Source of the DNA: Amphiscolops sp. MND2022
Taxonomy: Eukaryota
Reading direction: 5' to 3'
Assembly (NCBI GenBank): GCA_964187785.1
Contig: OZ076409.1
Span: 15,254,001 to 15,318,000 of the forward strand
Length of the DNA: 64,000 nucleotides
The notes under the pieces are model-generated. The model had not been told where the DNA came from and ran no database searches. It saw only the letters and a list, made by a program, of their open reading frames with translations. Shown piece by piece: positions 38,631 through 64,000 of the stretch (the first letter of the stretch is position 1; every line of letters starts with the position of its first letter). The translations under genes and the position numbers were made by a program.

Positions 38631-38745
38631 AGCCTAATTGTTGCGATGAACGTAATAATTAGGTAAGTTTTGATTGCTTGCATTTGAAAGCCGACTGTGA
38701 AAGTGGTCTGCTGTCCAATATTTGAACAAGGAACAAGCCAATCTG
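38631..38745 (+). ncRNA. Putative SL RNA gene copy (degenerate)
   Basis: 32-nt exon 38631-38662 followed by GTAAGT, stem-loop GACTGTGAAAGTGGTC, degenerate Sm site AATATTTGA. Confidence 0.7.
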
Positions 38746-38846
38746 CACAAACCTAAAAATTAGCGTACTTTGACAGAACATTACTTCATTATTCTGTACG
38801 TACTATAGTTGTTAGGCGCAGAAAGCTACCTGATTCTACAGTGATC

Positions 38847-38965
38847 AGCTACAACCTTACCATGTTGAATGCACCGTATTTCGTCCGATCACCGAAGTTG
38901 AACAACATAGGGCCTGGTTAGTACTTGGATGGGAGACTGCTTGGGACCACGAGATGTAGTAGCCT
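38847..38965 (+). rRNA. 5S rRNA, diverged copy, probably a pseudogene
   Basis: CGATCACCGAAGTT, GGTTAGTACTTGGATGGGAGAC and oligo-T terminator; several substitutions relative to 63764-63882. Confidence 0.9.
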
Positions 38966-39090
38966 TTTTGTAAAAAAAACGTGGTTTAACTTTGGTGACA
39001 GTTTTGCAAAGTGGGTCAATTTGAAAAGATAGCGAAAAGCAGACAACGCAGTCAAAAGTATCGTGCTCCAAGAAAAGTATCTTTGCTTTC

Positions 39091-39215
39091 AGCCTAATTG
39101 TTCTGATATACCTATTGAATAGGTAAGTGTTTCAACCCTATTGATGAGTTTTATTTGAAAGCAGACTGCGAAAGAGGTCTGTTGCACAGTTTTTGAACAA
39201 GGAACAAACTAGTCT
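39091..39215 (+). ncRNA. Putative SL RNA gene copy (degenerate)
   Basis: Exon 39091-39122, GTAAGT donor inside stem AATAGG/CCTATT, stem GCAGAC..GTCTGT, Sm-like AGTTTTTGA at 39188. Confidence 0.72.
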
Positions 39216-39316
39216 GCACTAACTTAAACTTTACGCGTACTTTGACAACATGTTTTAATACTTGTGTACGTAATAATGTGGTTAGGCATAAGAAGCTACT
39301 CGATTCTACAGTGATC

Positions 39317-39402
39317 GGCTACGACCATACCATGTTGAATGCACCGGTTCGTGTCCGATCACCGAAGGTACACAACATAGGGCGTGGTTAGTACTTCGAT
39401 GG
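39317..39402 (+). pseudogene. 3'-deleted 5S rRNA copy
   Basis: 5S sequence breaks off after GGTTAGTACTTCGATGG. Confidence 0.85.
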
Positions 39403-39972
39403 CGCCATTTGTATCAAAAACGTGGCTTAACTTCGGTGACAAATTTGCAAAGTGAGTCAATATGAAAAGATAGCAAAAATCAGACGAAGCCGTTAAAAAG
39501 AACGTCCAAAAAAACAATTATGCTGGAGTTTCGGCCACCATCAACTGAATAATCAATGAGTCGAGGCATTTTTTCATTTTGTCATTAAATGTGGATTAAC
39601 GTCAGTGACAGCTTTGCAAAAAGAGTCGAAAGTGAAAGATAACAAAAACTAGACAACTCCATTGGAAGGAAGGCCTTGAATTACCCCTAAAAGGTTTTTT
39701 ATACTCCAGGGTGGCTGTTTGATAGTACAATAGTTTTCATTTTTACTCAAACCCACCTAATTTATTCAGTGAAAATTTTTGTAATTTAGACAAACTTTTG
39801 TTTTTTTATTGTTTTTTTTCTAATCTTTTTAGTCATGATTTTAGTCAAACGTTTGAAACGTTGCCGTTCATCAAGAAATGTCTCTCAAAACAAGTTGTTG
39901 ACTGGTAATGGTGGATTAGTTATATTATTTAGTTAGTCAGTTATTTTTGCCTTTACCCTAATTGTTGTGATA

Positions 39973-42337: not shown

Positions 42338-42440
42338 AGCCCAATTGTTGTGATAAACTTAATATGTAGGTAAGTATTCTAATCATATTGATAACTTTCA
42401 TCTCAAAGAAGACTGCGAAAGTAACAAGCTAGTCTGCACT
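42338..42440 (+). pseudogene. SL RNA copy with the Sm region deleted
   Basis: Exon 42338-42369 and GTAAGT present; Sm-site segment missing. Confidence 0.65.
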
Positions 42441-42538
42441 AACCTAAAAGTTACGCTTATTTCGACCGCGAAAATTTTCGTAACATTGTAGGTACCTTTG
42501 TTGTTAAGCAAGAAAAGCTACTTGATTCCACAGTGCTC

Positions 42539-42607
42539 GGCTACGACCATACCATGTTGAATGCAACGGTTCACGATCAACCACCGAAGTCAAACAACAT
42601 AGGGTCT
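42539..42607 (+). pseudogene. 5' part of a 5S rRNA gene split by BEL/Pao insertion
   Basis: 5S nt ~1-69; continues at 50953. Confidence 0.88.
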
Positions 42608-43394
42608 TGTAACGGCTGCTTGATCCCTTCACTTGACCAAACTTTACGCCGCCCTGAGTTCGGTGATCGGCACTGCGGATCGTTTCCGAACAGTGCTTGC
42701 TTCTTTTATTGAAAGGACTCTATCTTGACTTAGTAGGATCTAATGATCTCGAATTGCACTTCTTCCTTGTCTCTTAACACGTCCAAATCTCCACAAGTTG
42801 AGAGTAACTAACTTAGTCGTCCCAAGTCTTTGGCGAAAAGACGAAAAGAGGTGAAGAAATGAATTGAGAAAATGTGTTGTCTCGAGACCCGACTTTAATA
42901 CAGCTTTCCAATCAAGTTGTGCCCATCTAGTAATAGTATACATATCGTTTACAAATATTCGATAAATATGAGTTGAAATATGAAGTATAAAAAATGACAT
43001 TTAAAGCATAATATGAAGTTATTGGCTAAGTAAACAAACTATATGGTGGTTCTGACATGATTTTTAGGTAGACTAGAAAGTGTATAACAGTGTTTACATT
43101 TTTGGGACAATGACCTTGTATATCGCACATGCGAAGGGTAAAGGGGTTATAGTGGGTGAATGACCTTGAAAATTAGCCGATGTGTCCATGTTAGGTCGTT
43201 GCATATGTGTGCCAAGTTTCGTGGCTCTACGATTTTTAGTTGTCGAGAAAATCCCAACAGGGGGGAGGTTTCCATTTGGTCCACCTTGACTTTTCATCGA
43301 AATTTCATCTAAGTTATAAGGTGTTTAAGTTCTTGTTTCTCAACTAGCATGTTCCAAATCGAATTTCTCTGCTTTCTGATGACTAGCGCCAACA
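42608..43394 (-). repeat. BEL 3' LTR
   Basis: Direct repeat of 50105-50952 with a ~60-bp deletion; the pol ORF ends inside it. Confidence 0.92.
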
Positions 43395-46300
43395 TTGCCG
43401 GCCCTGTTTTTCTCCCGAAAAACACTTTCAAAGAACAGGGGTGTCAGTTCCACTACTGGTATTTTGAATTCGCCAGCTTTTGTCTTAGCTTTTGATCTGA
43501 CACTGCAATCGCTTCCTTCTTGTACTTCGAATACTCTCGCCATCTTGTTTTTAGACTGCTTCACATTTTCATCCACAACCCAAACCAAATCATTTACTCT
43601 GAGTTGCCTCACACAATCTTTGTTCCATTTATTACGCACGTTCCATTCCGAGAGATATTCCATTCCATTCCGTTCCATGGTCCAGATCATATCTGAATAT
43701 GCTTGCGACACTCTGAATACGCGTCTCAAGTCCGTGTAGCGTTGAGCATCTGTTTGGAAAGGTGTCGCTAAATTTGCTCTTCCCAATAAGAAATGATTTG
43801 GTGTCAAAGCTTTCAGGTCATCTGAATCGTCACTAACACTTGTCAGTGGTCTAGCGTTCAACGTCTGCTCTACTAAGCACATAGTTGTTATGAGAACGTC
43901 GTCTCTCAAGGATCGTCCATCGAGTACAGCTATCATAGCTTTTTTACAACTTCGAACCAATCGTTTCCAGATTCCTCCAAAATGAGGGGCTCCAGGAGGG
44001 TTGAAATTCCACTTGTCATCCTTTTGAGCTAGAGACGTCTCAAAGGCTCACTGATTCCATGCATTTATACAATCTCTCATTTCGTTGGCTGCACCCACAA
44101 AGTTCGTCCCATTATTGCTCAAAATTGTAGCAGGTTTGCCTCTCTGGGCAATAAACCGTGTGATAGCAGTTAAGCAGGTTTCTGCTTTCAAAGATCGGAC
44201 AACTTCGATGTGTACTGCTCTAGTCGTCAAACAGGTGAAGAGACAGCACCATCTCTTCATAGTCTTGCGCATAAATTTAACTTCAAACGGACCAAAATAT
44301 TCAACTCCAGTGTTGGTGTAGGAGAACACTCGTTCCTGCAATCTTTCTCGTGGTAAATCAGCCATAAATGGTTGACACACTCCCGCTTGTTACTTTCTAC
44401 ATTTAACACATTTCGCTTTGACGCTTCTCAGGGCGTTTCGCAATCCAATATTCCAGTATTCTTGAGTTAGAACTCTTCTGACGTATTCTGTGTCTTCATG
44501 AAATTTTGTTTGATGTGTATCTTCAATCAACTTGATGACAACATAATGCTTTGTTGACAACACGATTGGGTGTTTGATTACATAACTTGACTTTGAATGT
44601 TGCAGTCGACCTTGTAGTCGTAGCAAACCATTTTCGTCCAGAAACGGCGATAATTTATTCAACTGATCTGAAACCGACAACGGCTGCCTTTTGGAGATCT
44701 TCTCGAGGGCATCATGAAAACTTTCCTGCTGACAACGCTTCAAAATTGCCAGTTTTGCCGCATTGAGTTCTTCAACTGCCAGAATTCCTTCGAATTTCTT
44801 TTCCCTCCATCTAAGGCAGTATGACAGCACTCGAATCGTTTTCTTGAAAGACCCAAATCTTTCCCTTTTGAATGCGGGTTCCATTACCGCAGCTTCCATG
44901 ACTGGTTCAGGCTCTTCTCGTATGCTAAATTGCAATTTTTCAGTCACCTTAGGCCAGGCGTCTTCTGTCTCGGTGAGTCACGCCGGCCCTGTGAGCCACT
45001 CACTTTCACTTTTTTCAACTGTCGTTCCTCGAGTTCCAATGTCAGCAGGATTCAGTTTTGCTTCACGATGCCGCCATAGTTGAATTTTCGAGATTTTCAG
45101 CAACGCGGTTTGCCACAAAGACCAGTTGTTTGTTGTTGCTTGCTTGAAGCCATTGTAGGACCGTTGTTGAATCTGTCCAATGTATAATTCGGTCTAATTC
45201 AATATCCAAATTCAATTCCAAAACAAGCTCTCGCAGTCCTACTCCAAAAACTGCTGCCTGCATGCATCTCCAACTTAGCCACTGTCATGTTTCGTATTGA
45301 GGCTAACTCTACATTTTCCGATCACAAAAGCGATTTCGCCATTTTCTTGCTTTCTCAAATAAGCAACCATACGCATTGCTTCCAACGAAGCGTCTGAGAA
45401 GACATGTAGATCTGCTTTGTTCACACCTGACTCAAAATATGTTCTTTTGAGTGGCATTTGGTTCACATGTATCATCTCTGATGCCCATCTCTTGAATTCA
45501 TGTCGATTTTTTTCATTCAGTTCTTTATCCCACGACTCTCCGTTCTCCTTCCATATCATTTTCAGTAGCAGTCGCTTTCTTATGGTGAAAGGAGACACTA
45601 TTCCCAGAGGGTCGAATACAGCTGAAACATGAGATAACACCGCCCTCTGCGTTATCTTCACCGGTATCTCTTTCTGCATGCCTCTACAGACTTCCAGATT
45701 GTCTGCGTCAACGTTCCATTGCAGTCCGACAATTGATGGAGAAGTCGGCTCAGCTTCAAAGGTTTTACTACAAAACGGTGACTTGTCTGCTTGGTCGATA
45801 TACATCATAGTCTGTTCGCAGTTGCTAATCCATTTTGTTAAGTGAAAGCGTCCCGTTGCCAACATCGCTCTTAACAATTTGTAGATTTCAATAGCCTGCT
45901 CCACAATGGGAACAGACTTGACAAAGTCATCCATATAGATGGTTCGCCTTATCAGTTTGGTAATACATGGGGACTCCTGTGTGCTATCTCTTGCAACTTG
46001 TTGCAGTGCATAATTGGCGCAAGTTTTGACTCCGAAGATATGTCTTCCATATTCATACACATTTACGGGTTCGTTTGGATTGTCTCTCCATAGAAATTTC
46101 AACACTTTACAATCTTCTGGTGGTACTTTCACTCGGAGGAAAAATAGCTGCAATGTTAGCAGTGATGGCGATCTTTTGTTCTCTAAACCTGAAGAATGTT
46201 CCAATCAGATTCTGCAGTAGGTCCGGCCCTGTCAAGAGGTTATCGTTCAGGGAAACTCAACGGAAGTTTGATGCTGCGTTGCATACTCGCCTCACCTTTC

Positions 46301-50952: not shown

Positions 50953-51008
50953 AGCCTGTTTTGTACTTGGATGGGAGACCGCTTGCGAACACCAGGTGTT
51001 GTAACCTT
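50953..51008 (+). pseudogene. 3' part of the split 5S rRNA gene
   Basis: GTACTTGGATGGGAGACCGCTTGCGAACACCAGGTGTTGTAACCTTTT. Confidence 0.88.
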
Positions 51009-51189
51009 TTCTGTCAAAAACGTGGTTTAACTTCTGTGACAGTTCTTCAAAATGGGTCAAAGTGAAAAGATTGCAGAAAACAGACAACGCCATTGGAAAG
51101 AATGTTCAAAAACCCCCCTGCTAAAGTTTTTTACGCTATCAATTGAATATTCCTTGAGTTAGATTTTTTTTAAACTCTAAATCTTCACG

Positions 51190-52805
51190 TATTCACTTGT
51201 TCAGCATCTTTTCAGTTGATAAGTGATTCCAACGCCCTTTTAACCCCTGTCGTGGAACAAAAAGAGAGCCATCTCCTGCTACGACGCTCGCTGGGTAAGG
51301 GGTTTTTGCACTATTCTGCTCGTGTGTGGTTGACCAAAGCAAGTTTTCCTAAAAAAGTGAGAGCATTGTCCCCCAATTTGGCCTGAGGACCAAATTGAAG
51401 CTTCCTTGGCTGGTAGCAGTCCTCAAAAAGCTATCAGTTTTAACGACGTTTCATGACCGTGTAAAGCGTTGCTTGCTCGTTTTACTCTAAACACGATTCA
51501 ACTTTTTCTGCCCCTTTGATGCTCTTGAAGCTATGTAATCCTCCGCCCTATTTACTTCGTTACCGGTTTACCTATTCATTATCGAGAGAAAACGTTGAAA
51601 AGAAAGACAAAATATCCAAAAAACCGCAAGACAAAAACAAAATATGTCAACTCTCTTCAAGAACTTTCACTGGACGGAATCGATGAAAACTCAACGGAGA
51701 ATCGATCTGAAAAACTTCCTGAACCAATCGCGATCCACCAAAAAGTTGAGAAAACCAAAATCTTGAAGCAATGAATTTTAGCAGATTAGTAACGAACAAG
51801 AATTACGAGCTTAAACACGAAGATGTTCAACAGTCTTAAAAATGAAAATTGTTCCCCGTTGAGGAAAGGCTTTTTTACCGATAGCGCTGCTCTGAAAACG
51901 AATTGAAAAGTCATACAAAGACATCCTCAGTGTCTTCCATCCCCAGCACAGCGAAATGATTACCATTTCGAGAATAACCAAGAAATTCGAAGAAAAAATC
52001 CACAAGTTTTACAAGTAATCGCCCCAGTCGAAGCAGAAGAAGACGTTGCGCGCATTAAATTAAATGAACTGAAAAACATGAATCAGACCGTCCCCTTGAC
52101 AGCTAAAGATACGTGGATGGTGAACAAGGTGCACGACATCAGAATAAACAACCTGCCAGCACTTTGCGACGATAACCAGCTAATAGAACTACTGCAGATC
52201 CCAGACTTTGCGGAGCTAGGTGAAATCCAACGAGAACGACAAAGGACGTAACAAAGAGGAACGAGAGCGCTGAGAAATTTGGTCGAAGTCAAGTGCATTT
52301 TCAGACAGCGTTTTCGGGTGCGAGCTTCCATTTTTTGCCAGCATTCCTGCTCTGTATCAATGCCAAAAAAATAAAGACGAGAAGAAGCAACGCTACAGAG
52401 AACACAATTATGACTGATGTAGAATTAACCGAAAGCGGAAACGGAATATGAGGAAAAGAATTTACGAAGTGCGGAGGATGGAAAAAGCAGCACTCATACA
52501 GACTCTTCAAATAGGTCTGATACAGAAGATGAAGAGCGAAAAAAGCAACTGCAGGCCCAATAACGACAAACATGGAGCAAGACATGGGTACTTGTGATTG
52601 GAAAACAGTAACTACAAGGTTACGGATTGGAATTGAAGTGCAACTGAAGAAAAATCGAGGACCAACTCCTCCATCAGGAACCGCAAATGTAGAAAGCGAA
52701 AAAAATCTAGAAACAAACAAAAAAACTCTCGAAAGAAGTCAATGGAGGTGCCTCAATGAAACCTGTCACATTAAAACATTGAACCTGTCACATTGAATCC
52801 TCAAT
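51190..52805 (+). mobile_element. Decayed ORF1-like (gag-like) non-LTR element at the strand-switch point of the array
   Basis: IRINNLPALCDDNQLIELLQIP..GEIQRE (~52140-52235); repeated 3' tail (AACCTGTCACATT x2). The 5' boundary is approximate and no TSD was found. Confidence 0.45.
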
Positions 52806-52827
52806 TAAACCACATTTCTGACAAAAA

Positions 52828-52946
52828 AGGCTACAACACCTGGTGTTCCCAAGCGGTCTCCCATCCGAGTACTAACCAGGCCTTATGTTGTTTAACTTCG
52901 CTGATCGGACGAGAACCGGTGCATTCAACATGGCATGGTCGTACCC
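52828..52946 (-). rRNA. 5S rRNA
   Basis: 119 nt, near-consensus, oligo-T terminator. Confidence 0.95.
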
Positions 52947-53044
52947 GATCGTTGTAGAATCAAGTAGCTTCATATGCTTAACAACAAAATTACGTACAAT
53001 GATAGGAAAATTTTCTCAGTCAAAATACGCGTAACTTTCAAGTT

Positions 53045-53166
53045 AATGCAGACTAAATTGTTGCTTGTTCAAAAATTGGGCAGCAGTCCACTTTCGCAGT
53101 CTGCTTTCAAGTAAAACTATCAATAGGGTTGGAATACTTACCTATTTATTAAGTTTGTCACAACAA
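53045..53166 (-). ncRNA. Putative SL RNA gene (nt 8 onward; nt 1-7 displaced to 59352-59358 by the Helitron)
   Basis: Exon part 53166-53142, GTAAGT 53141-53136, stem GCAGAC/GGACTGC, canonical Sm site AATTTTTGA 53077-53069. Confidence 0.78.
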
Positions 53167-53334
53167 TCATGTACATTTAAAAAGGGAGGCCGAACAAATT
53201 CGCTGATTGGTTGAGATACGCTCGGTGATACGCGCTGCTGCAATACAGTTCAAAAGAAGATTCCGAGATGAGCTGTGAGAAAATGTGTTGCTGAATTTCG
53301 AAATAGACGTTTCAGAATCTCCAACTCTCATCAA

Positions 53335-56300
53335 CAGTGGATATCGTAGAGGTTGCGTGTTAGACTCTCAAACCAAAATCTTGAGTTTGATTCTCGCCAT
53401 CGATCTTTTTTCAAAAAACGTCAGCATGAACAGTCTTTTAAAGCGTGAACAGACTTTGGCCTTTCTTTTCCTGGATCACTCAAACGTCAAGACTGTCAAT
53501 GCTTTTAGAAACCAAAATCCGTGTGTTGTCGGAAAAGAGGCGTCCACTATCATGGAGTTTGAATCAACAACCGATAGCGTAGAGGTTGCGTATCAGATTC
53601 TCATTCCAGTGTCTTGAGTTCGAATCCCTCTGTCAACATGTTTTCCAAAGTTTTACTTCTGATTTTGTAATGCTAAGTTCACTATCACATAGCTGCAATC
53701 AACTGTGGATGGTGCAGAGGTCGTGTAACTATCTTTTAAACAGCGTGAACAGTCTTTTAAAAGCATTGGTGTTCGTCTTTTTTCTTAATGGTGCGCTTGC
53801 AACTACTGTTCAGCAAGAGATCGTGGCCTAGAGGTTGCGTTGGTTGTCAGGTTCGTCGGGTGTTATTCTGGTAGCTTTGGGTTCGGTCCCCGGAAATGAC
53901 ATGGTTCAGCACTTGAATTGATAGTGTTATGGCTTAAACCCAACTTGATTGTTCATTTCGACACATACCGTATAGAGGACTCTAAGTTCGTTCATTATTC
54001 GAATACGAATGCTTACTTTTGGAAGCGGCAAAATTTTTAACATAAAGATTTTTGAACTCCTTCCAATAACGTTGTCCATTTTTTCACATCTTTTCAACAG
54101 TCAATGGCGTAGTGGTTGCGCGTTTGATTTCCATTCCAATGTCTTGAGTTCGATTCCCTCAGTCTTTTTGTGAAAATTTGTTAGCGTGGACAGTCGTTCA
54201 AAAGCACTGGAATATTCCATTTTCTTAAAAGTGCGCCTAAAACCACTGTTTCGCAAGATATCGTGGCCTAGAGGTTGCGTTGGTGGTTAGATTTGGTATA
54301 GCGTTTTCTGGTATCTTTGGGTTCGGTCCTCTGGGAAGGAATTTGTTCCGCACTTGAATTGATAGAGTGTTTTTGCTTACACCCAACTTAGTTGTTTAGT
54401 TCGACAAATACCGAATATAGCATTCTGAATTCGTCCAAAATTTGAATTAGAATGCTTACTTTGGAAGCGGCAAATTTTTCAACATAGGGATTTTTGGACT
54501 CTTTCCAATAACGTTGTACATTTTTTCACATTTTTTCAACAGTTAATGGCGTAGTGGTTGCGTGTTGAATTTCCAGTCCATTGTCTTGAGTTCGATTCCC
54601 TCAATCAATGTTTTCAAAACGCTGTCAGCGTGGACAGTCTTTCAAAAGCGCTGGAATTTTCTTATCTCTTAGTAGTGCGCCTAAAACCACTGTTCCGCCA
54701 GATATCGTGGCCCGAAATTGTTTACGTTGGTGGATAGGGTCGTTAGAGTTTTTTTCAACAGTTAATGGCGTAGTGGTTGCGTGTTAGATTTCCATTCCAA
54801 TGTCTTGAGATCGATTCCCTCAATCAAAACTTCTTTAAAAACGTTGTCAGCGTGGACAGTCTTTCAAAAGCACTGGATTCTTCCTAACTCTTAGTGGTGC
54901 GCCTAAAACCACTGTTTCGCAAGATATTATGGCCTAGTGGTTTTCGTTGGTGGTTAGGTTTGGTATAGCGCTGTTCTGGTATCTTTGGGTTCGGTCCCCG
55001 GGGATGGAACTTGTTCCGCACTTGAATTGATAGAGTGTTATTGCTTACACACAACGTGGTTGTTTACTTCGACACATACCGAATATAGCATTCTGAATTC
55101 GTCCAAAATTTGAATTGGAAGCGGCAAAATTTTCAACATAGGGATTTTTGGACTCTTTCCAATAACGTTGTACATTTTTTCACATCTTTTCAACAGTCAA
55201 TGGCGTAGTGGTTGCGTGTTAATTTTCCAGTCCATTGTCTTGAGTTCGATTCCCTCAATCAATTTTTTAAAACGCTGTCAGCGTGGACAGTCTTTCAAAA
55301 GCGCTGGAATTTTCTTCTCTTAGTAGTGCGCCTAAAACCACTGTTCCGCAAGATATCGTGGCCTGAATTTATTTACGTTGGTGGATAGGATCGTTAAAGT
55401 TTTTATGTGTTTGTTGTCTAGCTTTGTCTTTTTCGAAGGCCATTGAAATCCATGAACTGCGTGTTTTCAGGTGAGATGTCCACCATCATCAACCGAGAGC
55501 GTAGAGGTTGCGTACTAGCCTCTCATTTCGATGTCTTGAGTTCGATTCTCTCTATCAACTTTGTTTTTCAAACTTCTAATTCCCTCACCTAATGGTAAGT
55601 TCACTATCACGTAGCTGCAACCAACAGTGGACGGTGCAGAGGTCGTGTACTAGGCTCTCATAACAACTGCTTGAGTTCGAAACCCTTTGTCAACTTTTGT
55701 TTTGCAACGAATGCGATTGTGATTCTGCAACATTGTCACCGAAGTTAAACCACGTTTTTTGATAAAATCGAAAAACCACAAATTTATAACAACATTAATT
55801 AACGACAAATGCAGATAACATTCATTGGAACGCAACATGAACTACAACATGGACGTTTTCGCGGACGACTTTTCTAAAGGCTGTGTCTTTTTTTCCAACT
55901 TTTCACATTGATCCACTTTGCAACACTGTCACCGAAGCTAAACCTCACTTTGTGACGAAGTGCATATAAGGAATAACACAGTGAAGATCCCAAAGAACGC
56001 GGCAAAACTTTCATCGTGGGGGTTTTTTGAACGCTTTTTCCAGTGGTGCTCTTCAATTTTTCACATCTTTTCATATTGACCCACTTTGCAAAACTGTCAC
56101 CAAAGTTAAACCACGTTTCTTGACAAAAAAGCTACAACAGCGTGGGAGTTTCAGTGGACGCTCTCTCTGAAGCTGTTGTCTATTGTGTTGCATCTTTTGA
56201 ACTTGACTAAGTTTCAAAGTAAGTTGAAACCTGTTGTGTTCACTATCATACATCATGTATTTGGAATCAAGAGTCAATGGTGCAGAGGTTGTGTACTAGG

Positions 56301-58070
56301 CTCTCATAACAATCGCTTGAGTTCGAAACCCTCAATCAACTTTTCTTTTTCGGAGTATGCCATCGTGATTCTGGAACATTGCCTGCAACGGTAAACCACG
56401 TTTTTTGACAAAGTCGATAAAGTCCACGAAATCAACTGCAGACATAATTCAGTCAACATTCCTTAGAAGGCAGAAACATTTCCAAAATTCGTAGTAGTTT
56501 GATTTTTTTCCAATGCCGTTATACATTCGTTTTCATTAAATAGGATCTTGATTCATTTGCAACAGTGTCACCAAAGTTAAACCACATTTTGTGGCGAAAT
56601 GAAATGATGTCATAACTTGGTGCGTATTCAATGGACCATGAGCGCAACCATCACAACGTCTGAATCAGCTGAAGTGTGACGATAAAGCCATTATTACAGA
56701 ACAAGCGTTCAAAGTGCCAGGTAGCACAGTAGTGAAATTGCTGCAGCAGAATTGAACTCTGAAGTGTGGTGTGATATTGAAGTGTTCAGCATATGAGCCA
56801 TAAATGATCGATTCCAAGTACCTCGCATTGTTTCATGCTACTTTTTGTTACTTGGATGAAGTTTCAGAATTGGGCGCCAGCCCGACGGCTGGCTTTGCTA
56901 CCACTCAGGCCTTTGAAAACTGGTTAAGGCCCAAAGATCCTGAGGGTCAAACTTGGTTATCCTCTTCTGTCGATTCCGCTTCTTTGGGGAGGCGCTTCTT
57001 GGGGAGAGGAATAGTCCAACACGGCTATAATACGTTGACTGCGCTTTCGTCTTGCTCTCTTTCGGACTCAAGGATCCTCAAGGGTGTCGGTTATTGGTTC
57101 GAGCGGAATCAATTTCATAGCTAGCAAATTATGTTTCTGAAGTTTTCAACGCGAGACTTAATTCATCCCCTCTGACTTTTCTGGGGCAGCTTCGAGTGAT
57201 TGGTTATACTCAAACATGTGTAGAGTCAAAAAAACTATATCCGAATAGATTTTTGTAATGAAGTGAATTCTTATATATCTGCGTACGTAAAGTCTGTGCT
57301 TATGTAAAGTCGGAAACAATAGACATACGGGCGATGCAAATTCGTTATGGCACAGGCGTTAACCACTATCACGGAGCTTGAATAAACAACCGATAGCGTA
57401 GAGGTGACGTATCAGGCTCTGCTTCCAATGTTTTCAGTTCGATCCCCTCTATCGATCCTTTTCTTTCAAATATTGCCAGCGTGAACATCTTTTCAAAAGC
57501 ACTGTTTTATTCTTTCTCTTAGTGGTTCGCTCACAACCACTCTTTTGCAAGATATTGTGGATTAGAGGTTACATTGGTGGACAGGTTCGTTAGAGTGTTG
57601 TTCTGGTAGCTTTGGGCTCGATCCTCGTGGTGGACTTGGATCCGGACTTGAGTTGATTGTTTGGTTTTCCTTCCATCCAACTTAGTTGATTAATTCGGCA
57701 TAGACCATCAAAGGCAAAAGTTGTTGAAATATTTAATACCAAAAATTCCTTTGGACTTTGGCCTTTCCTTTTCTGGATTGCTCAAACGTCAAGACTGAAA
57801 ATGCGTTTAGAAACCAAAATCCGTGTGTTTTCGAAAAAGAAGCGTCCACTATCACGGAGTTTGAATCAACAACCGATAGCGTAGAGGTTGCGTATCAGAC
57901 TCTCATTCCAATGTCATGAGTTCGAACCCCACTGTCAACATTGTTTTCCAAAGTTCTACTTCTGATTTTCTAATGCTAAGTTCACTATCACATAGCTGCA
58001 ATCAACTGCGGATGATGCAGAGGTTGTGTACTAGGCTCGCATAATAATCGCCTGAGTTCGAAACCCTTAG
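53335..58070 (+). repeat. Array of degenerate tRNA-like (A-box/B-box) cassettes inside the Helitron
   Basis: More than 15 units, e.g. 53575, 53820, 54103, 54260, 54545, 54765, 54928, 55200, 55495, 55630, 56278, 57393, 57555, 57877, 58013, each TRGCGTAGTGG-like ... GAGTTCGATTCC-like. Confidence 0.8.
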
Positions 58071-58279
58071 TCAACTTTTATTTTGCGAAGAATGCAATCG
58101 TGATTCTGCAACATTGTCACTGAAGTTAAACCATCTTTTTTGAAACAGTCGATGAACCACAAAAATATGACCAACCTAATTAACGGAACAAAGCAGATAA
58201 CATTTATTGGAAGGCAACATAACCTACCTCATGGTTAGGTATGATTTTACCTTTTATAAATTCTCAGGCCGATTTTTCG

Positions 58280-58824
58280 AATGCCGAAGCGCTGATAGAA
58301 CACTGGAAGTAGCGGACCAATGTAGATTTCCCGTGGAATATCTGAACACATTGAATCCATCTGGTCTTCCACCACATATGTTACAGCTGAAACCAGGTTG
58401 TTTGATCATTTTGCTGCGTAATCCTAACCCTATTGTCGGTGTGTGTAATGGGGCGTGGTTGATTCTAATCGCAATAAGCCGACACAGTTACCTCGAAGCT
58501 ACTTTGATTGGTCTAAACCTTTCTGGGTCAGACGTGTTGATACCACGTATCAATTTGACCACAGAACAAGTCTTCGACATGCCAGTAATTTGGGTTAGAA
58601 GACAATTTCCCATACGTCCCGCATTCGCAATGACAATCAACAAAAGTCAGGGTCAAACCTTTGACAAAGTTGGGTTGTACTTGGAAGAACCTGTATTTTC
58701 TCATGGTCAATTGTATGTTGTTTTATCCCGATGTTCATCTGCTGCCAACCTTAAAATATTTTTACCACCCAAAGATGATGGCACTTTTTGGACGAAAAAC
58801 GTAGTTGACAAAAAAAATTTTTGA
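58280..58824 (+). pseudogene. Helitron RepHel PIF1 helicase C-terminal fragment
   Basis: FPVEYLNTLNPSGLPPH, RRQFPIRPAFAMTINKSQGQT, VFSHGQLYVVLSR, TKNVV; no Rep domain or N-terminal helicase motifs. Confidence 0.9.
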
Positions 58825-59799
58825 GTATCAGTCCCTTTTAAATAGCACCCAAGCTAATCACTGGTAGTTTAGGGGAGTAAAATCAAAGGACAAGATTAGA
58901 TGTTTTGACAATCTAACACATGAATTTTGTGTTTTGTGCTCATCTTTTGTTTTGCAATCAACTTTTTTTGTGCTCTAATCAACAGTGGATAGCGTTGTGT
59001 TGTTCTGGTAGCTTTGTGTTCGAGCTCTAAGGTGGACTTCGATCCGCACTTGAGTTGATAGAGTCTTATGACTTCACCCAACTTGGTTGTTTAGTTTGAC
59101 AATTACCATACAAGGCAAAAGTCGTGGAACACTTTGATACCAATAATTTGAATGGATTTTGGGCTTTCCTTTTCTAGATAGCTCAAACGTCAAGACTCTA
59201 AATGCGTTTAGAAACCGAAAACCGGGTGTTTTCGGGAAAGAGATGTTCACAATCACGGATAACAGTTTGGAGTATAATCATCCACTTTTTGATACCTCAT
59301 ATCCATTAAACCTCTTTAATTAGTCGCCGTAGTCGGCAGCGGGTTTGCTAGTTAGGCTAAGAGAAAAGAGTCAATTTTTTGGAGGGCGAGACTCCTATCT
59401 GCGGTACTGAAGCCAACAACTTGTTTTGAGGGGAAATTATCATAAAAAGACAACGTTTCAAGTTTCTGACATCTGAGGAAACCAAAATATTTTAGAAAAT
59501 CTGTGCAAAAGCAAAATTTTGACTCCATTACGAAAATGTATGCTGAAAAGCATAAATTAGTAAGCTTAAAAATGAAATTTCATGTACTATCAAAAGTCGA
59601 CTAAGGAGTCTGAAAAACACGTTTTAGGGGTAATTTTGGGCCTTCTTTCCAATGCCGTTGTCCGTTTTTTTTGCTATATGTTCATTTTGACTCCTTTTGC
59701 AAAACTGCCACCGAAGTTAGAACACATTTTGTGAAAAGTGTAAAATGACATAAATCAATGAAAATTCAATTGATGGCGGCAAAAATTTCAGCATTGTCG

Positions 59800-60654
59800 T
59801 GTAACTAGGCTCTCATATTATTCGCTTGAGTTCGAAATTCCTAGTCAACTTTTATTTTGCGAAGAATGCAGACGTGATTCTGCAACATTGTCACTGCAGT
59901 TAAACTACGTTTTTGAAACAGCCGAATAACCACAAAATTTTGACAAACCTAATTAACGGTAAAAAGCAGATAACATTTATTGGAAGGCAACTTAACTTAC
60001 CTCATGGCTAGGTATGGTTTTACCTTTTATAAACTTTAAGGCCACTTTTTCGAATGCCGCAGCGCTGATAGAACACTGGAAGTAGCGGACCAAGGTAGAT
60101 TTCCCGTAGAATATCTCAACACATTGAATCCATCTGGTCTTCCACTACAAATGTTACAGCTGGAACTAGGTTGTTTGATCATTTTGCTGCGTAATCTTAA
60201 CCCATCTGTCGGTTTGTGTAACGGGGCGAGGTTGATTCTTAACGCAATAAGCAGACACAGTTACCTCGAAGCTACTTTGATTGGTGCAAACCTTTCTGGG
60301 TCAGACGTGTTTATACCACGTATCGATTTAACCACAGAACAAGACTTCGACATGCCAGTAAATTGGGCTAGAAGGCATTTTCCCATACGTCCCGCATTCG
60401 CAATGACAATCAACAAAAGTCACGGTCAATCTTTTGACAAAGTTGGGTTGTACTTGGAAGCACCTGTATTTTCTCTTAGTCAATTGTATATTGCTTTATC
60501 CCGATGTTCAACTGCTGCCAACCTTAAATTACATTTACCACCCAAAAATGATGGCACTTTCTGGACGGAAAACGTAGTTTACAAAGAAATTTTTTGAGCA
60601 TCAGTCTCTTTTAAAAAGCACCCAAGCTAATCACTGGTAGTTTAGGGTTTAATA
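59800..60654 (+). mobile_element. Second, 5'-truncated Helitron copy with PIF1 fragment (ORF 60124-60597)
   Basis: Duplicates ~58025-58875; ends with hairpin ACCCAAGCTA/TAGTTTAGGGT and ATAG, followed by TTAGGCT (SL nt 7-1). Confidence 0.78.
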
Positions 60655-60661
60655 GTTAGGC

Positions 60662-61220
60662 TAAGAGCAAAGAGTCAATTTTTTGTAGCGCGAGACTCCT
60701 ATCTGCGGTACTGACTTACCATTACCAGCCAACAACTTGTTTTGAGGGGAAATTCTCATAAAAAGACAACGTTTCGAGTTTCTGACATCTGATGAAACCA
60801 AAGTATTTTACAAAAACTGTGCAAAAGCAAAATTTTGACTCTATTACGAAAATGTATGCTGAAAAGCATAAATTGGTATGCTTAAAAATGAAATTTCATG
60901 TATTATCAAAAGTCGACTCAGGAGTCTGAACAACACGTTTTAGGGGTAATTTTGGGCCCTCTTTCCAGTGCCGTTGTCCGTATTTTGCTATCTGTTCATT
61001 TTGACTCCTTTTGCAAAACTGTCACCGAAGTTAAACCACATTTTGTGAAAAGTGTAAAAACGACATAACTCATTGAAAATTCATTTGATGGCGGCAAAAA
61101 TTTCAGCATGGGGGTTTTTTGGACGCTCTTACCAATGGCGTTGTCCGTTTTTTGCTATCTTTTCAATTTCACACAATTTGCAAAACTGTCACCAAAGTTA
61201 AACCACATTTCTGACAAAAA
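60662..61220 (-). repeat. Intergenic spacer of the SL/5S unit (copies at 59359-59795 partial, and 63205-63763)
   Basis: ~560-bp near-identical repeats with an internal ~170-bp subrepeat. Confidence 0.88.
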
Positions 61221-61339
61221 AGGCTACAACACCTGGTGTTCCCAAGCGGTCTCCCATCCAAGTACTAACCAGTCCCTATGTTGTTTATTTTCGGTGATCG
61301 GACAAGACCCGGTGCGTTCAACATGGTATGGTCGTAGCC
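61221..61339 (-). rRNA. 5S rRNA
   Basis: 119 nt with oligo-T terminator; a few substitutions. Confidence 0.95.
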
Positions 61340-61444
61340 GATCGTTGTAGAATCAGGTAGCTTTATATGCTTAACAACAAAATTACGTACAATGATACAA
61401 AAATTTTCTCGATCAAAATACGCGTAACTTTTAATTTAGTGCAG

Positions 61445-61567
61445 ACTAGCTTGTTCCTCGTTCGAAAATTGAGATTTAGACCACTTTTGCAGTCAGCTTT
61501 CAAATGAAACCTATCAATAGGGTTGGAATACTTACCTATTTAATAAGTTTATCATAATATTTAGGCT
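61445..61567 (-). ncRNA. Putative SL RNA gene copy (mutated)
   Basis: 32-nt exon 61567-61536, GTAAGT 61535-61530, Sm-like AATTTTCGA 61470-61462. The 3' end is approximate. Confidence 0.75.
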
Positions 61568-63186
61568 TTTGAAGACTATATTGAATGCTGAGGATATACA
61601 AGTACAAAGTAATGAAGTCTAAAGTATAGGTATAAATATCTGAGTATATGAGTAATTGAGGTATGTAAATGAATATGCTTGGTTACTTAATATCAGCGCC
61701 AAAATATTTGAGAGTAAATATAAAAAGCGCCAAATTTGAAATGAAGTTGGTATAATGTAGTTTGGAGAATGTATGAGAAGAGGTTGTTTGCTCCTGGAAG
61801 GAGTTTGTTTTGAAATTCAGTTTTTTTTGCACACAGTACTAGTAGTGTTTGAAAAGAATCGGGAATTGGGTTGGTTGGTGATGGGCATGTAAAGAAATAG
61901 GAATTCGAAAGTTCAGTCGAACAATGTCTGAATTTTTTCAGTTTTTGTTTTCATTGTATAAGTTTTCAATTGCTGTGAAAACTTGCACTTTTCTATTCTC
62001 CAATTTGATAGTGTAAACGTGGTGGTTTGTAGCGTCATAGAAAGGACCAAACTTTCGGATCATTGTGTAAAATTCAAAGTGAGAATATAAAACTGTGTTA
62101 GAGTCAGAATGTTTCCAGTTTGATTCAGATAAAAGATCTTCAATTTTTGTTTTCTTCAGTGGTTGCCCTAGTGAAAACGTCCCTTGAATTTTCTTTTCCT
62201 TGTCCAGTAAATTGATGTAACCAGACGTTTGCTGGGTTTTGATCATGTTCTTTTATAGCAGGTAATTCGTTGAAAATTGTTTCTGGTGCCAAAATTTTGT
62301 TTAGTTTCTTTTCCAAGAAAAAAGGCTATTCATGCTTTGCAGTTGACTGTTGATCAGTTGTTTGACTTTGGGAAATTTCTGCTGAGAATGTCCATTCAGT
62401 TGAGCGATGCATTAGTTCAGGTTTTTGCATAGGAAGTGTATCTTTTTTTTGAGTTGTCAATCCATGGTTCTTCAGTTTCTTCTACGTTGTTATTGCATTC
62501 CATTTCAGCACCATCATCGGCCTGCTTTGGCTTCTTTGAAATTGGTTCAGCATCATTTAAATATGACAATTCAGGTTCATTAGATATTGGCTCTGTTTCT
62601 GAAGGTTCCATAACGTAGTCTGTTGTTAACTTCTGGTTCTGAGATTTACTGTTTTTCCGTATCTGTTGTTCGTCTGGTAGTTGTTTTGGGCATCTTGATT
62701 GTTGATGAGCACTTGGAAGGTTCTCTCTGGCACATAAAAGGCAATCGATGAGTGGGAGACAGCAGCATTTGAAAACAATGCGACTGGATGTAAACGTTTT
62801 GTCATATGCATTATTAGCCCTGTTGCCTTATTACCTTTGTTGCGTAAAATTGTAGTTTTGAAAATGGTAATTTCATTGAAATTTAGTCGTTTTTTGACCG
62901 TAATAACAGCTTCCACAAACATTGAATCCAGTAATTTGATGTTTTTGAACATGTCAGATGTCAGGGGTAAAGCAAAGTTGGCAATAATTGGTTATTTGTC
63001 CATATTTGAGTTCGATTTCGATAAGCAAACAACTGCATTTTTGTAACAATTTTGTTCAACGCTTTCATTATGATGTTGATCGAGCTCATTCGTGTTCAAA
63101 TTAGTCATTACTTTTGCCACTTTTGTTGCAAAATTTGCAAGATGGCGCTGTGCAAACAAAGTTTGCAGGGTAACAGAATAACGCCG
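61568..63186 (-). mobile_element. ORF1-only (HAL1-like) non-LTR element inserted in the SL exon
   Basis: 18-bp direct repeats of SL nt 1-18 at 63187-63204 and 61550-61567; gag-type knuckle CLLCARENLPSAHQQSRC (~62743-62690); 5' end GGCGTTATTCTGT resembles GGCGCTATGCTGT of the 39973 element; no RT motif seen. Confidence 0.68.
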
Positions 63187-63237
63187 TATCACAACAATTA
63201 GGCTAAAAGCAAAGAGTCAATTTTTTGGAGCGCGAGA

Positions 63238-63257
63238 CTCCTATCTGCGGTACTGAC
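63238..63257 (-). promoter_or_regulatory. Candidate snRNA-type proximal sequence element upstream of the SL start
   Basis: TCAGTACCGCAGATAGGAG conserved ~35-53 nt upstream of SL nt 1 in three spacer copies; the position fits a PSE but function is inferred only. Confidence 0.3.
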
Positions 63258-63763
63258 TAACCATTACCAGCCAACAACTTGTTTTGAGGAGAAATTCTCA
63301 TGAAAAGACGACGTTTCAAGTTATTGACATCTGATGAAACAAAAATATTCCAGAAAAATTGTGAGAAAGCAAAATTTTGACTCTATTACGAAAATGTATG
63401 CTGAAAAGCATAAATTAGTAAGCTTAAAAATGAAATTCCATGTATTATCAAAAGTCGACTCAGGAGTGTGAAAAACACGTTTTAGGGGTAATTTTGGGCC
63501 CTCTTTCCAATGCCGTTGTCCGTTTTTTGCTATCTGTTCATTTTGACCCCTTTTGCAAAACTGTCACCGAAGTTAAACCACATTTTGTGAAAATAGTAAA
63601 AATGACATAACTCAATGAAAATTCAAGTGATGGCGGCGAAAATTTCAGCATGGGGGTTTTTTTGGACGCTCTTTCCAATGCCGTTGTCCGTTTTTTGCTA
63701 TATGTTCATTTTGACCCCTTTTGCAAAACTGTCACCGAAGTTAAACCACATTTCTGACAAAAA

Positions 63764-63882
63764 AGGCTACAACACCTGGTGTTCCCAAGCGGTCTCCCAT
63801 CCAAGTACTAACCAGGCCCTATGTTGTTTAACTTCGGTGATCGGACAAGACCCGGTGCGTTCAACATGGTATGGTCGTAGCC
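63764..63882 (-). rRNA. 5S rRNA (best-conserved copy)
   Basis: GGCTACGACCATACC...GGTTAGTACTTGGATGGGAGACCGCTTGGGAACACCAGGTGTTGTAGCCT followed by a T-run; the upstream flank runs into the next SL copy at the window end. Confidence 0.97.
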
Positions 63883-64000
63883 GATCGTTGTAGAATCAGG
63901 TAGCTTTATATGCTTAACAACAAAATTACGTACAATGATACAAAAATTTTCTCGATCAAAACACGCGTAACTTTTAATTTAGTGCAGACTAGCTTGTTCC

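What the first reader, a model, noticed from the sequence alone, without database searches (positions are those of the whole stretch)
38631..64000. Hidden spliced-leader RNA gene co-repeated with 5S rRNA (~0.9 kb unit)
Seen: about 200-230 nt upstream of each 5S gene whose flank is in the window, on the same strand, lies AGCCTAATTGTTGTGATAAACTTATTAAATAG|GTAAGT. The exon is 32 nt in all five copies (38631, 39091, 42338, 53166+59358, 61567). In the better copies the donor sits in a stem (AATAGG/CCTATT), followed by a second stem-loop and an Sm site (AATTTTTGA at 53077-53069). Known: exon + 5' splice site in stem-loop I + Sm site defines SL RNAs, and SL/5S linkage is established in nematodes such as C. 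elegans. Inferred: this organism trans-splices a ~31-32-nt leader encoded in its 5S array. The exact cap site and 3' end are uncertain.
Basis: partly seen in the sequence, partly recalled or inferred. Interest (0 to 1): 0.92.

Follow-up and report, generated by a model that had tools for sequence, protein, structure and literature searches.

The report
Decayed spliced-leader/5S gene copies
These are worn or transposon-broken copies of a real spliced-leader RNA gene that sits just upstream of the 5S rRNA gene in a 0.9-kb repeat; the leader itself is already published for the acoel worm Symsagittifera roscoffensis, so only the 5S linkage and the mobile elements that target the gene are new details.

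Summary
Five SL-like copies lie at the stated coordinates, each with a 32-nt exon plus GGTAAGT, 216-228 nt upstream of a 5S gene on the same strand.

The interpretation also holds, but it is not new.

The window's own genome (1.07 Gb) holds 1189 exact exon+donor copies, mostly in tandem arrays with a 904-bp period about 1 Mb away. The window holds none. Its five copies differ from the canonical 125-nt SL RNA region at 9-36 positions. One is split by a 6.2-kb Helitron-like element and one lies directly behind a retroelement.

RNA contigs from three metatranscriptomes pile up on the exon, stop exactly at the donor, and continue into different sequences.

A metagenome contig from a relative has the same SL-then-5S arrangement. 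Exon identity is 32/32, SL RNA nt 33-100 is 67/68, and 5S is 117/119, but the spacer is only 53/128.

I found no paper on SL-5S linkage in acoels. An APE-type LINE family that inserts specifically into this SL exon also appears undescribed.

Verdict: a real feature, correctly read, essentially already known, and the window copies are probably inactive.

The parts
38631..38965 (+). Truncated SL-5S unit. SL-like exon at 38631-38662, donor GT at 38663-64, degenerate 5S at 38847-38965. It has an 11-nt deletion in stem-loop I and the Sm site is changed to AATATTTGA.
   Evidence: unit nt 1-430, 83%. One search shows 28 differences in the 125-nt SL RNA region and 12 of 119 in 5S. One search gives 5S 65.8 bits.
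39091..39920 (+). Diverged SL-5S unit. Exon at 39091-39122, 5S at 39317-39433. Sm region reads AGTTTTTGA.
   Evidence: unit nt 1-860, 77%. One search shows 13 differences in the SL RNA region and 23 in 5S. One search gives 5S 50.4 bits.
42338..42610 (+). SL-5S remnant. Exon at 42338-42369. An internal deletion removes stem II and the Sm site, and 5S is truncated.
   Evidence: unit nt 1-300, 78%. One search shows 36 differences. No Rfam 5S hit.
50954..51170 (+). Unit fragment comprising the 5S 3' part and the downstream sub-repeat.
   Evidence: unit nt 294-515, 86%.
52805..53166 (-). Best-preserved SL RNA body in the window. Exon nt 8-32 at 53166-53142, Sm AATTTTTGA at 53077-53069, 5S at 52946-52828. 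It is cut off from exon nt 1-7 and from its upstream region.
   Evidence: unit nt 7-370, 94%. One search shows 9 differences in the SL RNA region and 5 in 5S. One search gives 5S 97.3 bits.
53167..59351 (+). Helitron-like insertion of 6185 bp splitting the SL exon between nt 7 and 8. It sits at a host A|T, with a 5'-TC start, a short GCCG-TAGT-CGGC hairpin and a CTAG-3' end. It carries a Pif1-helicase fragment at 58201-58824 and pieces of the unit's sub-repeat.
   Evidence: Termini read. Pfam Pif1_2B_dom E 3e-13. Unit fragments inside it.
59352..59794 (-). Tail of the preceding unit (nt 460-907) plus exon nt 1-7 (59358-59352). This is the other half of the split gene.
   Evidence: 85%.
60663..61567 (-). 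Full 907-bp SL-5S unit. It has a variant exon with 3 changes (61567-61536), a damaged stem II and Sm region (AATTTTCGA), and 5S at 61339-61221. A retroelement tail lies directly upstream in place of the native flank.
   Evidence: 91%. One search shows 15 differences. The fold z-score is -0.92 against -3.2 for the consensus. The variant exon has only 3 exact copies genome-wide, all in this local array.
61568..63186 (-). A 1.62-kb retroelement-like insertion in the SL exon, with no recognised ORF. It ends ...TAGTCTTCAAA and is flanked by an 18-bp duplication of exon nt 1-18.
   Evidence: No Pfam hit on its ORFs. Of 40 scored copies of its 3' end, 34 abut an SL exon (coordinates compared).
63187..63204 (-). 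An 18-nt SL exon stub (AGCCTAATTGTTGTGATA) behind its native upstream flank. This gene is truncated by the insertion above.
63205..64000 (-). SL-5S unit nt 111-907, with the best 5S gene of the window (63882-63764). Its SL part lies beyond the window end.
   Evidence: 92%. One search gives 5S 108 bits. One search shows 3 of 119 differences.

Best explanation
[quoted passage not shown] The species is Symsagittifera roscoffensis or a very close relative, judged from the leader sequence, genome size and GC content.

The gene lies 228 nt upstream of a 5S rRNA gene, on the same strand, in a 904/907-bp tandem unit.

The SL RNA starts at or next to A1 of AGCC.... It carries a 31-32-nt leader whose last bases and GU donor are paired in stem-loop I. 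A 10-bp second hairpin follows, then a single-stranded Sm site (AAUUUUUGA, nt 98-106).

By analogy with all studied SL RNAs, I infer the following, none of which is shown here. The RNA is made by RNA polymerase II, receives a trimethylguanosine cap and binds Sm proteins. The spliceosome then uses it to donate its leader to AG acceptors of pre-mRNAs. The neighbouring 5S gene is transcribed separately by RNA polymerase III and ends in a T run.

The working copies sit in large homogeneous arrays elsewhere in the genome. The five copies in this window are decayed members of a small side array. They are mutated in the exon, stem or Sm site, cut by a Helitron-like element, or separated from their native upstream flank by a retroelement that targets the SL exon. 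They are most likely not functional.
For: Shown:

- Identity with the published leader. That paper reports 10,433 trans-spliced genes.
- The own genome holds 1189 exact exon+GGTAAGT 38-mers against 0 for the control pattern. Of these, 1068 have the native TTTT flank and form long runs at a 904-bp period. The window has 0 exact copies.
- In 30 fetched loci, 34 of 39 copies carry the exact 32-nt exon.
- The 109-nt consensus folds with the donor in stem I, a second hairpin and a free Sm site. MFE is -27.2 kcal/mol, z is -3.22, and 2 of 200 shuffles fold as well.
- RNA-library contigs from 3 runs of one study cover the exon at depth 138-513 and end exactly at its last base. The unspliced SL RNA is covered from nt 3 to nt 104 and beyond at depth 109-310. 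In one run, 3 contigs continue past the exon into different sequences (agreement 0.58).
- A relative's metagenome contig (L072) has the same order and strand, with its 5S gene scoring 117.8 bits. Identity is 32/32 in the exon, 67/68 in nt 33-100 and 117/119 in 5S. It is only 55/100 upstream and 53/128 in the spacer. This shows selection on the SL RNA itself.
- The window copies differ from the canonical 125 nt at 28, 13, 36, 9 and 15 positions. Their fold z-scores are -0.5 to -0.9 for three of the five. The disruptions were read.

Inferred: polymerase assignment, cap, Sm binding, and inactivity of the window copies.
Against: - No RNA-seq of the species itself was served. The RNA evidence comes from metatranscriptomes whose organism is a relative, not this genome. 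Its 3' tail is absent from G000 at <=2 mismatches but present in L072.
- These are contigs, so RNA ends, strand and level cannot be read, and DNA carry-over cannot be excluded.
- One high-depth contig includes 12 genome-templated bases upstream of A1, so a start further upstream is not excluded.
- Two contigs carry the exon internally, with other sequence on both sides. This is unexplained.
- The published leader ends in an extra A that the gene does not encode. The gene has the G of the GT donor at that position.
- Rfam has no matching SL family. That is expected for lineage-specific SL RNAs, but it means there is no independent family assignment.
- Inactivity of the window copies is argued from sequence only. 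Copies just outside the window (L003, L004) pair the variant exon with an intact stem II and Sm site, so some expression of the local array is possible.
Confidence: 0.93

Rival explanations
1. The window's copies are working variant SL RNA genes. They would form a second SL class with an altered leader, rather than being pseudogenes.
For: - All five keep a 32-nt exon and a GTAAGT donor.
- The local array repeats a variant exon in at least 3 exact copies.
- Two copies just outside the window keep an intact stem II and Sm site (L003, L004).
- SL variants are known in other phyla. The nematode SL1 variants are described in a passage of PMC1657053.
Against: - Each in-window copy has further damage: a deletion in stem I, loss or change of the Sm site, a Helitron-like split, or loss of the native upstream flank.
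- The linked 5S genes decay in parallel, with 3-23 differences. That pattern indicates relaxed selection on the whole unit.
- The variants are private to this locus, against 1189 exact canonical copies elsewhere.
- No alternative letters were seen in the RNA contigs (table 3), though those came from a relative.
Confidence: 0.1
2. The conserved block upstream of 5S is only a 5S spacer or promoter element, and its GTAAGT is coincidental. There is no SL function.
For: - The block always travels with 5S.
- Rfam recognises no SL family here.
Against: - The sequence is identical to a leader recovered from mRNA 5' ends in print.
- RNA contigs break exactly at the donor and run on into different sequences.
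- A relative conserves nt 1-100 at 99/100 while the rest of the spacer is 53/128.
- The stem I, stem II and Sm architecture is present.
Confidence: 0.01
3. The scattered copies in the window were brought there by transposons, through Helitron capture or retroelement transduction, rather than being remains of a local tandem array.
For: - The Helitron-like element at 53167-59351 contains pieces of the unit's sub-repeat.
- A second Pif1 fragment lies between units at 60040-60597.
- The retroelement's 3' end itself carries AGCC(TC) at four non-SL sites. This shows that a few target bases travel with it.
Against: - The copies keep unit order and orientation over up to 907 bp.
- They continue into a regular 2.54-kb higher-order array beyond the window end.
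- The Helitron-like element interrupts a pre-existing exon at an A|T site rather than carrying it.
- The captured pieces are sub-repeat fragments only, not SL or 5S.
Confidence: 0.1

Closest known systems
Published spliced leader and SL RNA genes of Symsagittifera roscoffensis (Martinez et al. 2022, G3; PMC9911081; preprint 10.1101/2022.08.27.505549)
   Same: The leader sequence is the same letter for letter (31 nt). The papers mention multiple SL RNA genes with a conserved region of ~100 bp and a predicted canonical fold. I read passages, plus the supplement legend of Fig. S2.
   Different: - The papers' text and supplement text contain no mention of 5S, rRNA or ribosomal genes. Tandem linkage, copy number and transposon targeting are therefore not described there.
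- Their leader lacks the first A and adds a final A that the gene does not encode.
- Figure S2B is an image that I could not see.
C. elegans SL1 RNA / 5S rRNA tandem repeat
   Same: An SL RNA gene and a 5S gene share one ~1-kb tandem unit. A passage of PMC1657053 gives ~110 copies. In a search listing, the abstract of 10.64898/2026.01.07.698080 says Pol II binds SL1 and Pol III the 5S gene in this cluster.
   Different: - The leader is unrelated in sequence and length (22 nt in nematodes, recalled, against 31-32 nt here).
- There are about ten times more copies here, with 1189 exact exon+donor copies.
- Both genes are on the same strand here. The divergent orientation in C. elegans is recalled, not checked.
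slRNA-5S clusters of other SL-using lineages (copepods, dinoflagellates, Hydra, Oikopleura, euglenids)
   Same: [quoted passage not shown] The Hydra, Oikopleura and euglenid cases are recalled from memory only.
   Different: This is a different phylum (Xenacoelomorpha). I found no report of the linkage there. No paper holds both 'Symsagittifera' and '5S rRNA', and only the genome paper and its preprint combine SL terms with acoel terms.
SL-exon-specific non-LTR retrotransposons (NeSL of nematodes; CRE/SLACS/CZAR of trypanosomatids)
   Same: They insert site-specifically into the spliced-leader exon of tandem SL genes. Spliced leader exons are listed as LINE targets, and NeSL as SL-specific, in passages of PMC4640811. 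The trypanosomatid names are recalled.
   Different: Those elements encode a restriction-like endonuclease. The LINE found here encodes an apurinic-like endonuclease (Exo_endo_phos) plus RVT_1 and zf-RVT. In this it resembles the target-specific Tx1 and R1 clades named in PMC4640811. Its clade was not determined.

Membership tests
Spliced-leader RNA | Short 5' exon directly followed by a consensus GU 5' splice site | tested here: met
   A 32-nt exon plus GTAAGT is present in all five window copies. There are 1189 exact copies in the genome.
Spliced-leader RNA | The exon is found on the 5' ends of many unrelated mRNAs | tested here: inconclusive
   Published for this leader, with 10,433 genes (PMC9911081). 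Here, RNA contigs end at the donor and 3 contigs in one run continue into different sequences. However, they are contigs from a relative, and no own-species RNA-seq was served.
Spliced-leader RNA | Single-stranded Sm-binding site (purine-A-U4-6-G-purine) downstream of the donor | tested here: met
   The consensus has AAUUUUUGA unpaired at nt 98-106. It is kept in 1 of 5 window copies (53077-53069) and altered or deleted in the other 4.
Spliced-leader RNA | 5' splice site base-paired within stem-loop I, followed by further hairpin(s) | tested here: met
   The predicted fold pairs exon nt 18-33 with intron nt 47-61, followed by a 10-bp hairpin II. The z-score is -3.22. This is a prediction only. 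The relative shows no sequence variation in this region, so covariation could not be tested.
Spliced-leader RNA | Trimethylguanosine cap, Sm protein binding, Y-branched splicing intermediates | not testable with these tools
   Needs TMG or Sm immunoprecipitation and branch mapping.
Spliced-leader RNA | Purifying selection on the RNA relative to its flanks | tested here: met
   Against a relative's contig, nt 1-100 are 99/100 identical. Upstream is 55/100 and the spacer is 53/128.
5S rRNA gene (Rfam RF00001) | Match to the covariance model above the gathering score, followed by a T-run terminator | tested here: met
   Five hits of 50.4-108 bits against a cut-off of 38. T5-6 follows the gene.
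Functional SL RNA gene (applied to the window's own copies) | Canonical exon, intact stems and Sm site, uninterrupted, with the native upstream flank | tested here: not met
   0 of 5 copies meet all of these. They carry 9-36 differences, a Helitron-like split, a retroelement directly upstream, and deletions.
Target-specific APE-type LINE (side finding) | APE + RT ORF2; copies confined to one target sequence; independent insertions at the same site | tested here: met
   - Exo_endo_phos E 1.9e-7, RVT_1 E 2.7e-29, zf-RVT E 3.6e-5.
- 18 of 20 3' ends join ...TTCTTTAAA to AGCCTAATTG.
- 19 of 19 5' ends lie in the SL exon, with three different stub lengths on different unit variants.
- A LINE 33% identical at the protein level sits at the same site in metagenome contig L071.
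- The clade (Tx1, R1 or other) was not determined.
Helitron (side finding) | 5'-TC, 3' hairpin + CTRR, insertion between host A and T, Rep/helicase | tested here: inconclusive
   The termini and the A|T target fit, and a Pif1-type helicase fragment is present. No Rep domain was found among the ORFs tested, and the hairpin is only 4 bp.

The most novel reading that the evidence does not exclude
Two things about this locus may be new.

(1) In acoels the SL RNA gene is physically coupled to the 5S rRNA gene. There are more than 1000 copies of a 0.9-kb unit. The arrangement is conserved in at least two taxa, while the spacers have diverged beyond recognition.

(2) The first 9-18 nt of the SL exon are the dedicated landing site of an APE-type LINE lineage and of a 1.6-2-kb partner without a recognised ORF. 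The 3' ends of these elements carry AGCC(T), which matches the target. Together they separate about 9% (103 of 1189) of otherwise perfect SL genes from their native upstream flank. This would be the first SL-specific LINE with an apurinic-type endonuclease, evolved independently of NeSL and CRE.
Probability: 0.55. Interest if true: 0.5.

Novelty: already known. Interest (0 to 1): 0.3.

Why it matters
For the finding as given, it matters little. The leader, trans-splicing of about 30% of genes, and the existence of multiple SL RNA genes are already published for this acoel. SL-5S linkage is a classic arrangement in several other SL-using lineages. The value here is confirmation that a reader without tools recovered the true leader from five degenerate copies.

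The increments are modest but real:

- They add Xenacoelomorpha to the lineages in which SL RNA and 5S genes are co-repeated. This bears on why the linkage evolves again and again.
- The two-taxon footprint defines the conserved core of the SL RNA as nt 1-100.
- They expose an SL-exon-specific APE-type LINE family. That offers a natural system for studying how target specificity for SL genes arose independently of the restriction-like-endonuclease elements of nematodes and trypanosomes.

Tried and rejected
- **Rfam.** At gathering scores it found only 5S in the window. A permissive scan of the canonical SL RNA region gave only chance-level snoRNA and thermometer hits, E 3-8. So there is no SL family assignment.
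- **Own-species RNA-seq.** None was offered. The RNA runs laid were metatranscriptomes of one study. The lack of RNA cover upstream of the exon and over L006 1627-1741 is not used as evidence, because the organism in those runs has different flanks.
- **Sharp start of homology at AGCC.** I first took this as a sign of the transcription start. I rejected it because the boundary is the 3' junction and target duplication of retroelements.
- **3' tail in the RNA contigs.** I searched for it in the own genome and found 0 matches at <=2 mismatches. This showed that the RNA came from a relative, later matched by L072.
- **Covariation test of the SL RNA fold.** Not possible. The relative is identical over nt 1-100 apart from one copy-specific base, and the window copies are decaying.
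- **Earlier notes of this scan.** Nothing was found by place or by sequence.
- **Pfam on six ORFs in window 1-14 kb.** Nothing above the cut-offs.
- **Conserved sub-repeat downstream of 5S.** No Rfam hit and no consensus structure (-0.96 kcal/mol, 0 compensatory pairs).
- **One literature search.** It was badly framed, because 5S synonyms satisfied it alone, so it is not used. It was replaced.
- **LINE clade assignment.** Not attempted, because no reference LINE sequences were available to the tools I used.


Full report
**1. Observation**

- Exons at 38631-38662, 39091-39122 and 42338-42369 on the + strand.
- Exon at 61567-61536 on the - strand.
- A split copy, with nt 1-7 at 59358-59352 and nt 8-32 at 53166-53142.

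Each exon is 32 nt and is followed by GTAAGT. Rfam finds five 5S genes, scoring 50-108 bits against a cut-off of 38. Four have an SL-like exon 216-228 nt upstream on the same strand. The fifth has its flank cut by the window end.

The 18-mer core occurs 4 times at <=3 mismatches, against 0.13 expected. None of 100 shuffles reaches 4.

The quoted 38-mer is a consensus. At <=3 mismatches it matches the window once, with 3 mismatches. The copies share only 76% mean column identity.

**2. The genome around the window**

The window is C1:15254001-15318000 of a 1.067-Gb assembly with 1929 contigs. A 241-nt query from the 61567 copy found 1305 candidate places, of which 40 were scored.

Exact-pattern counts over the genome, each with a control of 0:

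| Pattern | Count |
|---|---|
| exon + GGTAAGT | 1189 (739+450) |
| same, preceded by TTTT (native flank) | 1068 |
| same, preceded by AAA (retroelement tail) | 103 |
| other flanks (by subtraction) | 18 |

The native-flank copies form long runs with a 904-bp period on C1 at 16.36-16.45 Mb and beyond. Further arrays lie on C12 and C13.

A canonical 907-bp unit, taken between two exon starts in L007, contains the SL gene at nt 1 onward and 5S at nt 229-347. So the 0.9-kb co-repeat is real, but the window contains only one full, diverged unit (61567-60663, 91%) and several fragments.

**3. Identity**

A full-text search for the core sequence found two items: the genome paper of the acoel Symsagittifera roscoffensis and its preprint.

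In passages of both, the authors reconstruct the leader GCCTAATTGTTGTGATAAACTTATTAAATAGA from unmapped 5' ends of transcripts. They report 10,433 trans-spliced genes (30.2%). They mention multiple SL RNA genes sharing ~100 bp and show a predicted fold in Supplementary Fig. 2B, of which I could read only the legend.

The assembly size (1.07 Gb here, 1.10 Gb published) and GC content (34-41% in 8-kb bins here; 36.7% published) fit that species or a close relative.

The gene encodes A before GCC and G (of the GT donor) after ...AATAG. The published final A is therefore not gene-encoded, and the first base remains open.

**4. RNA evidence obtained here**

No RNA-seq of the species was served. The best RNA holders were three metatranscriptomes of one study, with shares of 0.14-0.17. 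I laid them on a canonical copy, L006:1380-1741, in which the exon is 1514-1545.
- Contigs pile up on 1514/1516-1545 at depth 138-513 and end exactly at 1545.
- The unspliced RNA is covered over 1516-1617 at depth 310 in X3, and over 1520-1613 at depth 109 in X1.
- In X3, three contigs run on behind 1545 into different sequences (median 191 nt, agreement 0.58).

That is the signature expected of a leader joined to many bodies. There are limits.
- These are contigs, and all come from one study.
- The organism is a relative, not this genome. Its 3' tail is absent from G000.
- One contig includes 12 templated bases upstream of the exon.
- Two contigs carry the exon internally, which I cannot explain.

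**5. A second taxon**

A scan of metagenome contigs with a 24-mer across the donor found two contigs.

L072 carries the same 32-nt exon and an identical SL RNA body. It also carries the very 3' tail and upstream 12-mer seen in the RNA contigs. A 5S gene lies 209 nt from the exon start on the same strand, scoring 117.8 bits.

Segment identities against a G000 unit:

| Segment | Identity |
|---|---|
| upstream 100 nt | 55/100 |
| exon | 32/32 |
| nt 33-100 | 67/68 |
| nt 101-228 (spacer) | 53/128 |
| 5S | 117/119 |

Selection therefore acts on SL RNA nt 1-100 and on 5S, not on what lies between. The linkage predates the split of the two taxa. In L072 the Sm site reads AATCTCTTGA, whereas the expressed contigs read AATTTTTTGA.

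**6. Structure**

The 109-nt consensus folds as follows.
- Exon nt 18-33 pair with intron nt 47-61, so the donor lies in the stem.
- A 10-bp hairpin II follows.
- AAUUUUUGA is unpaired at nt 98-106.

MFE is -27.2 kcal/mol and z is -3.22. The window copies at 61567, 53166 and 39091 fold no better than shuffles, with z of -0.9 to -0.5.

**7. State of the window copies**

Differences from the canonical 125 nt are 28, 13, 36, 9 and 15. The linked 5S genes differ at 12, 23, 5 and 6 positions, and the fifth 5S at 3.
- **53166 copy.** This is the best-preserved body, but it is split after exon nt 7 by a 6185-bp Helitron-like element at 53167-59351. The element sits at a host A|T and has a 5'-TC start, a small hairpin and a CTAG-3' end. 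It contains a Pif1 fragment.
- **61567 copy.** It lies directly behind a 1.62-kb insertion (63186-61568). That insertion leaves an 18-nt exon stub at 63204-63187 behind the native flank. This gives an 18-bp duplication of exon nt 1-18.
- **Variant exon of the 61567 copy.** It has only 3 exact copies genome-wide, all in the local 2.54-kb higher-order array.

I conclude that the window holds the decayed edge of a side array. Inactivity is inferred, not shown.

**8. Retroelements that target the SL exon (side finding)**

In L031, a 4.95-kb LINE sits between a 12-nt exon stub and a complete exon. It has an ORF1 of 447 aa, an ORF2 of 1007 aa with Exo_endo_phos, RVT_1 and zf-RVT domains, and a ...TTCTTTAAA tail.
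- All 20 genome matches to its 3' end were scored, and 18 show the identical junction to AGCCTAATTG. Of the other two, one is truncated and in one the anchor was not found.
- All 19 matches to its 5' end lie in the SL exon. They show three different stub lengths on different unit variants, so there were at least three independent insertions.
- Metagenome contig L071 carries a LINE only 33% identical at the protein level at the same junction.

For the 1.6-kb element, 34 of 40 scored 3' ends abut an SL exon by coordinates, and 2 could not be verified. The remaining 4 are dispersed on other chromosomes. There the element ends in ...TTCAAAAGCC(TC) followed by unrelated DNA. Its 3' end therefore itself matches the target.

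SL-specific LINEs known from print are of the restriction-like-endonuclease type. APE-type target-specific LINEs belong to the Tx1 and R1 clades (passages of PMC4640811).

**9. Comparison and novelty**

SL RNA genes co-repeated with 5S are established in C. elegans, with ~110 copies (passage of PMC1657053). They are described as common among SL-using organisms (passage of PMC4664967).

For acoels, I found only the genome paper and its preprint combining SL and acoel terms. Neither contains the words 5S, rRNA or ribosomal. No paper holds both 'Symsagittifera' and '5S rRNA'. The library covers open-access papers and bioRxiv only.

The core of the finding is therefore already known. The linkage, the copy number, the two-taxon footprint and the SL-targeting elements are additions.

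Noticed in passing
L031:984-5932 (own genome C1:16323783-16328731); not in the window: A full-length 4.95-kb APE-type LINE (ORF1 447 aa; ORF2 with Exo_endo_phos, RVT_1 and zf-RVT) is inserted in the SL exon. All 19 5' ends and 18 of 20 3' ends in the genome lie in or at an SL exon, with three different stub lengths. A LINE 33% identical at the protein level sits at the same site in metagenome contig L071.
   Followed up: partly
window 61568-63186 (-), stub at 63187-63204: A 1.62-kb retroelement-like insertion with no recognisable ORF is flanked by an 18-bp duplication of SL exon nt 1-18. Of 40 scored copies, 34 abut an SL exon. Four dispersed copies on C3, C6, C7 and C10 end in ...TTCAAAAGCC(TC), so the element's 3' end carries the first bases of its target.
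   Followed up: partly
window 53167-59351 (+); also 60040-60597: A Helitron-like element (5'-TC, hairpin + CTAG-3', host A|T) splits an SL exon. It contains a Pif1-helicase fragment at 58201-58824 and pieces of the unit's sub-repeat. A second Pif1 fragment lies between units at 60040-60597. No Rep domain was found.
   Followed up: partly
window 43340-49698 (-): BEL/Pao-type LTR retrotransposon remains. Pfam hits are Peptidase_A17, rve (below the cut-off), DUF1759 and DUF5641, in broken frames.
   Followed up: no
window 63640-63762 and 63470-63590 (-); unit nt 357-458 and 518-629; L072 140-270, 870-1000, 1040-1167: A ~110-nt sub-repeat occurs twice per unit downstream of 5S and is also present in the relative. 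Its cores (GTGGTTTAACTTYGGTG and TGCAAAAKGGGTCAAAATGA) are invariant across taxa, although the SL-5S spacer is not conserved. It has no Rfam hit and no consensus structure. Its function is unknown.
   Followed up: partly
L006:1514-1545 as laid (runs X1-X3): Two RNA-library contigs (285 and 295 nt) carry the SL exon internally, with other sequence on both sides. One high-depth contig includes 12 templated bases upstream of the exon. Neither fits a simple picture of a capped 5'-terminal leader.
   Followed up: no
window 61534-61536 and all canonical copies: The published leader ends ...AATAGA, but every gene copy reads ...AATAG|GT. The final A is not encoded by the SL gene and probably reflects the first base of acceptor exons or the manual reconstruction.
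   Followed up: no
L007:2321-2420 versus L072:430-528: Upstream of the exon, only TCCAAAAA(A)TTG (about -27 to -16) and GCTTTT (-6 to -1) are shared between the two taxa. These are candidate promoter elements of the SL RNA gene.
   Followed up: no
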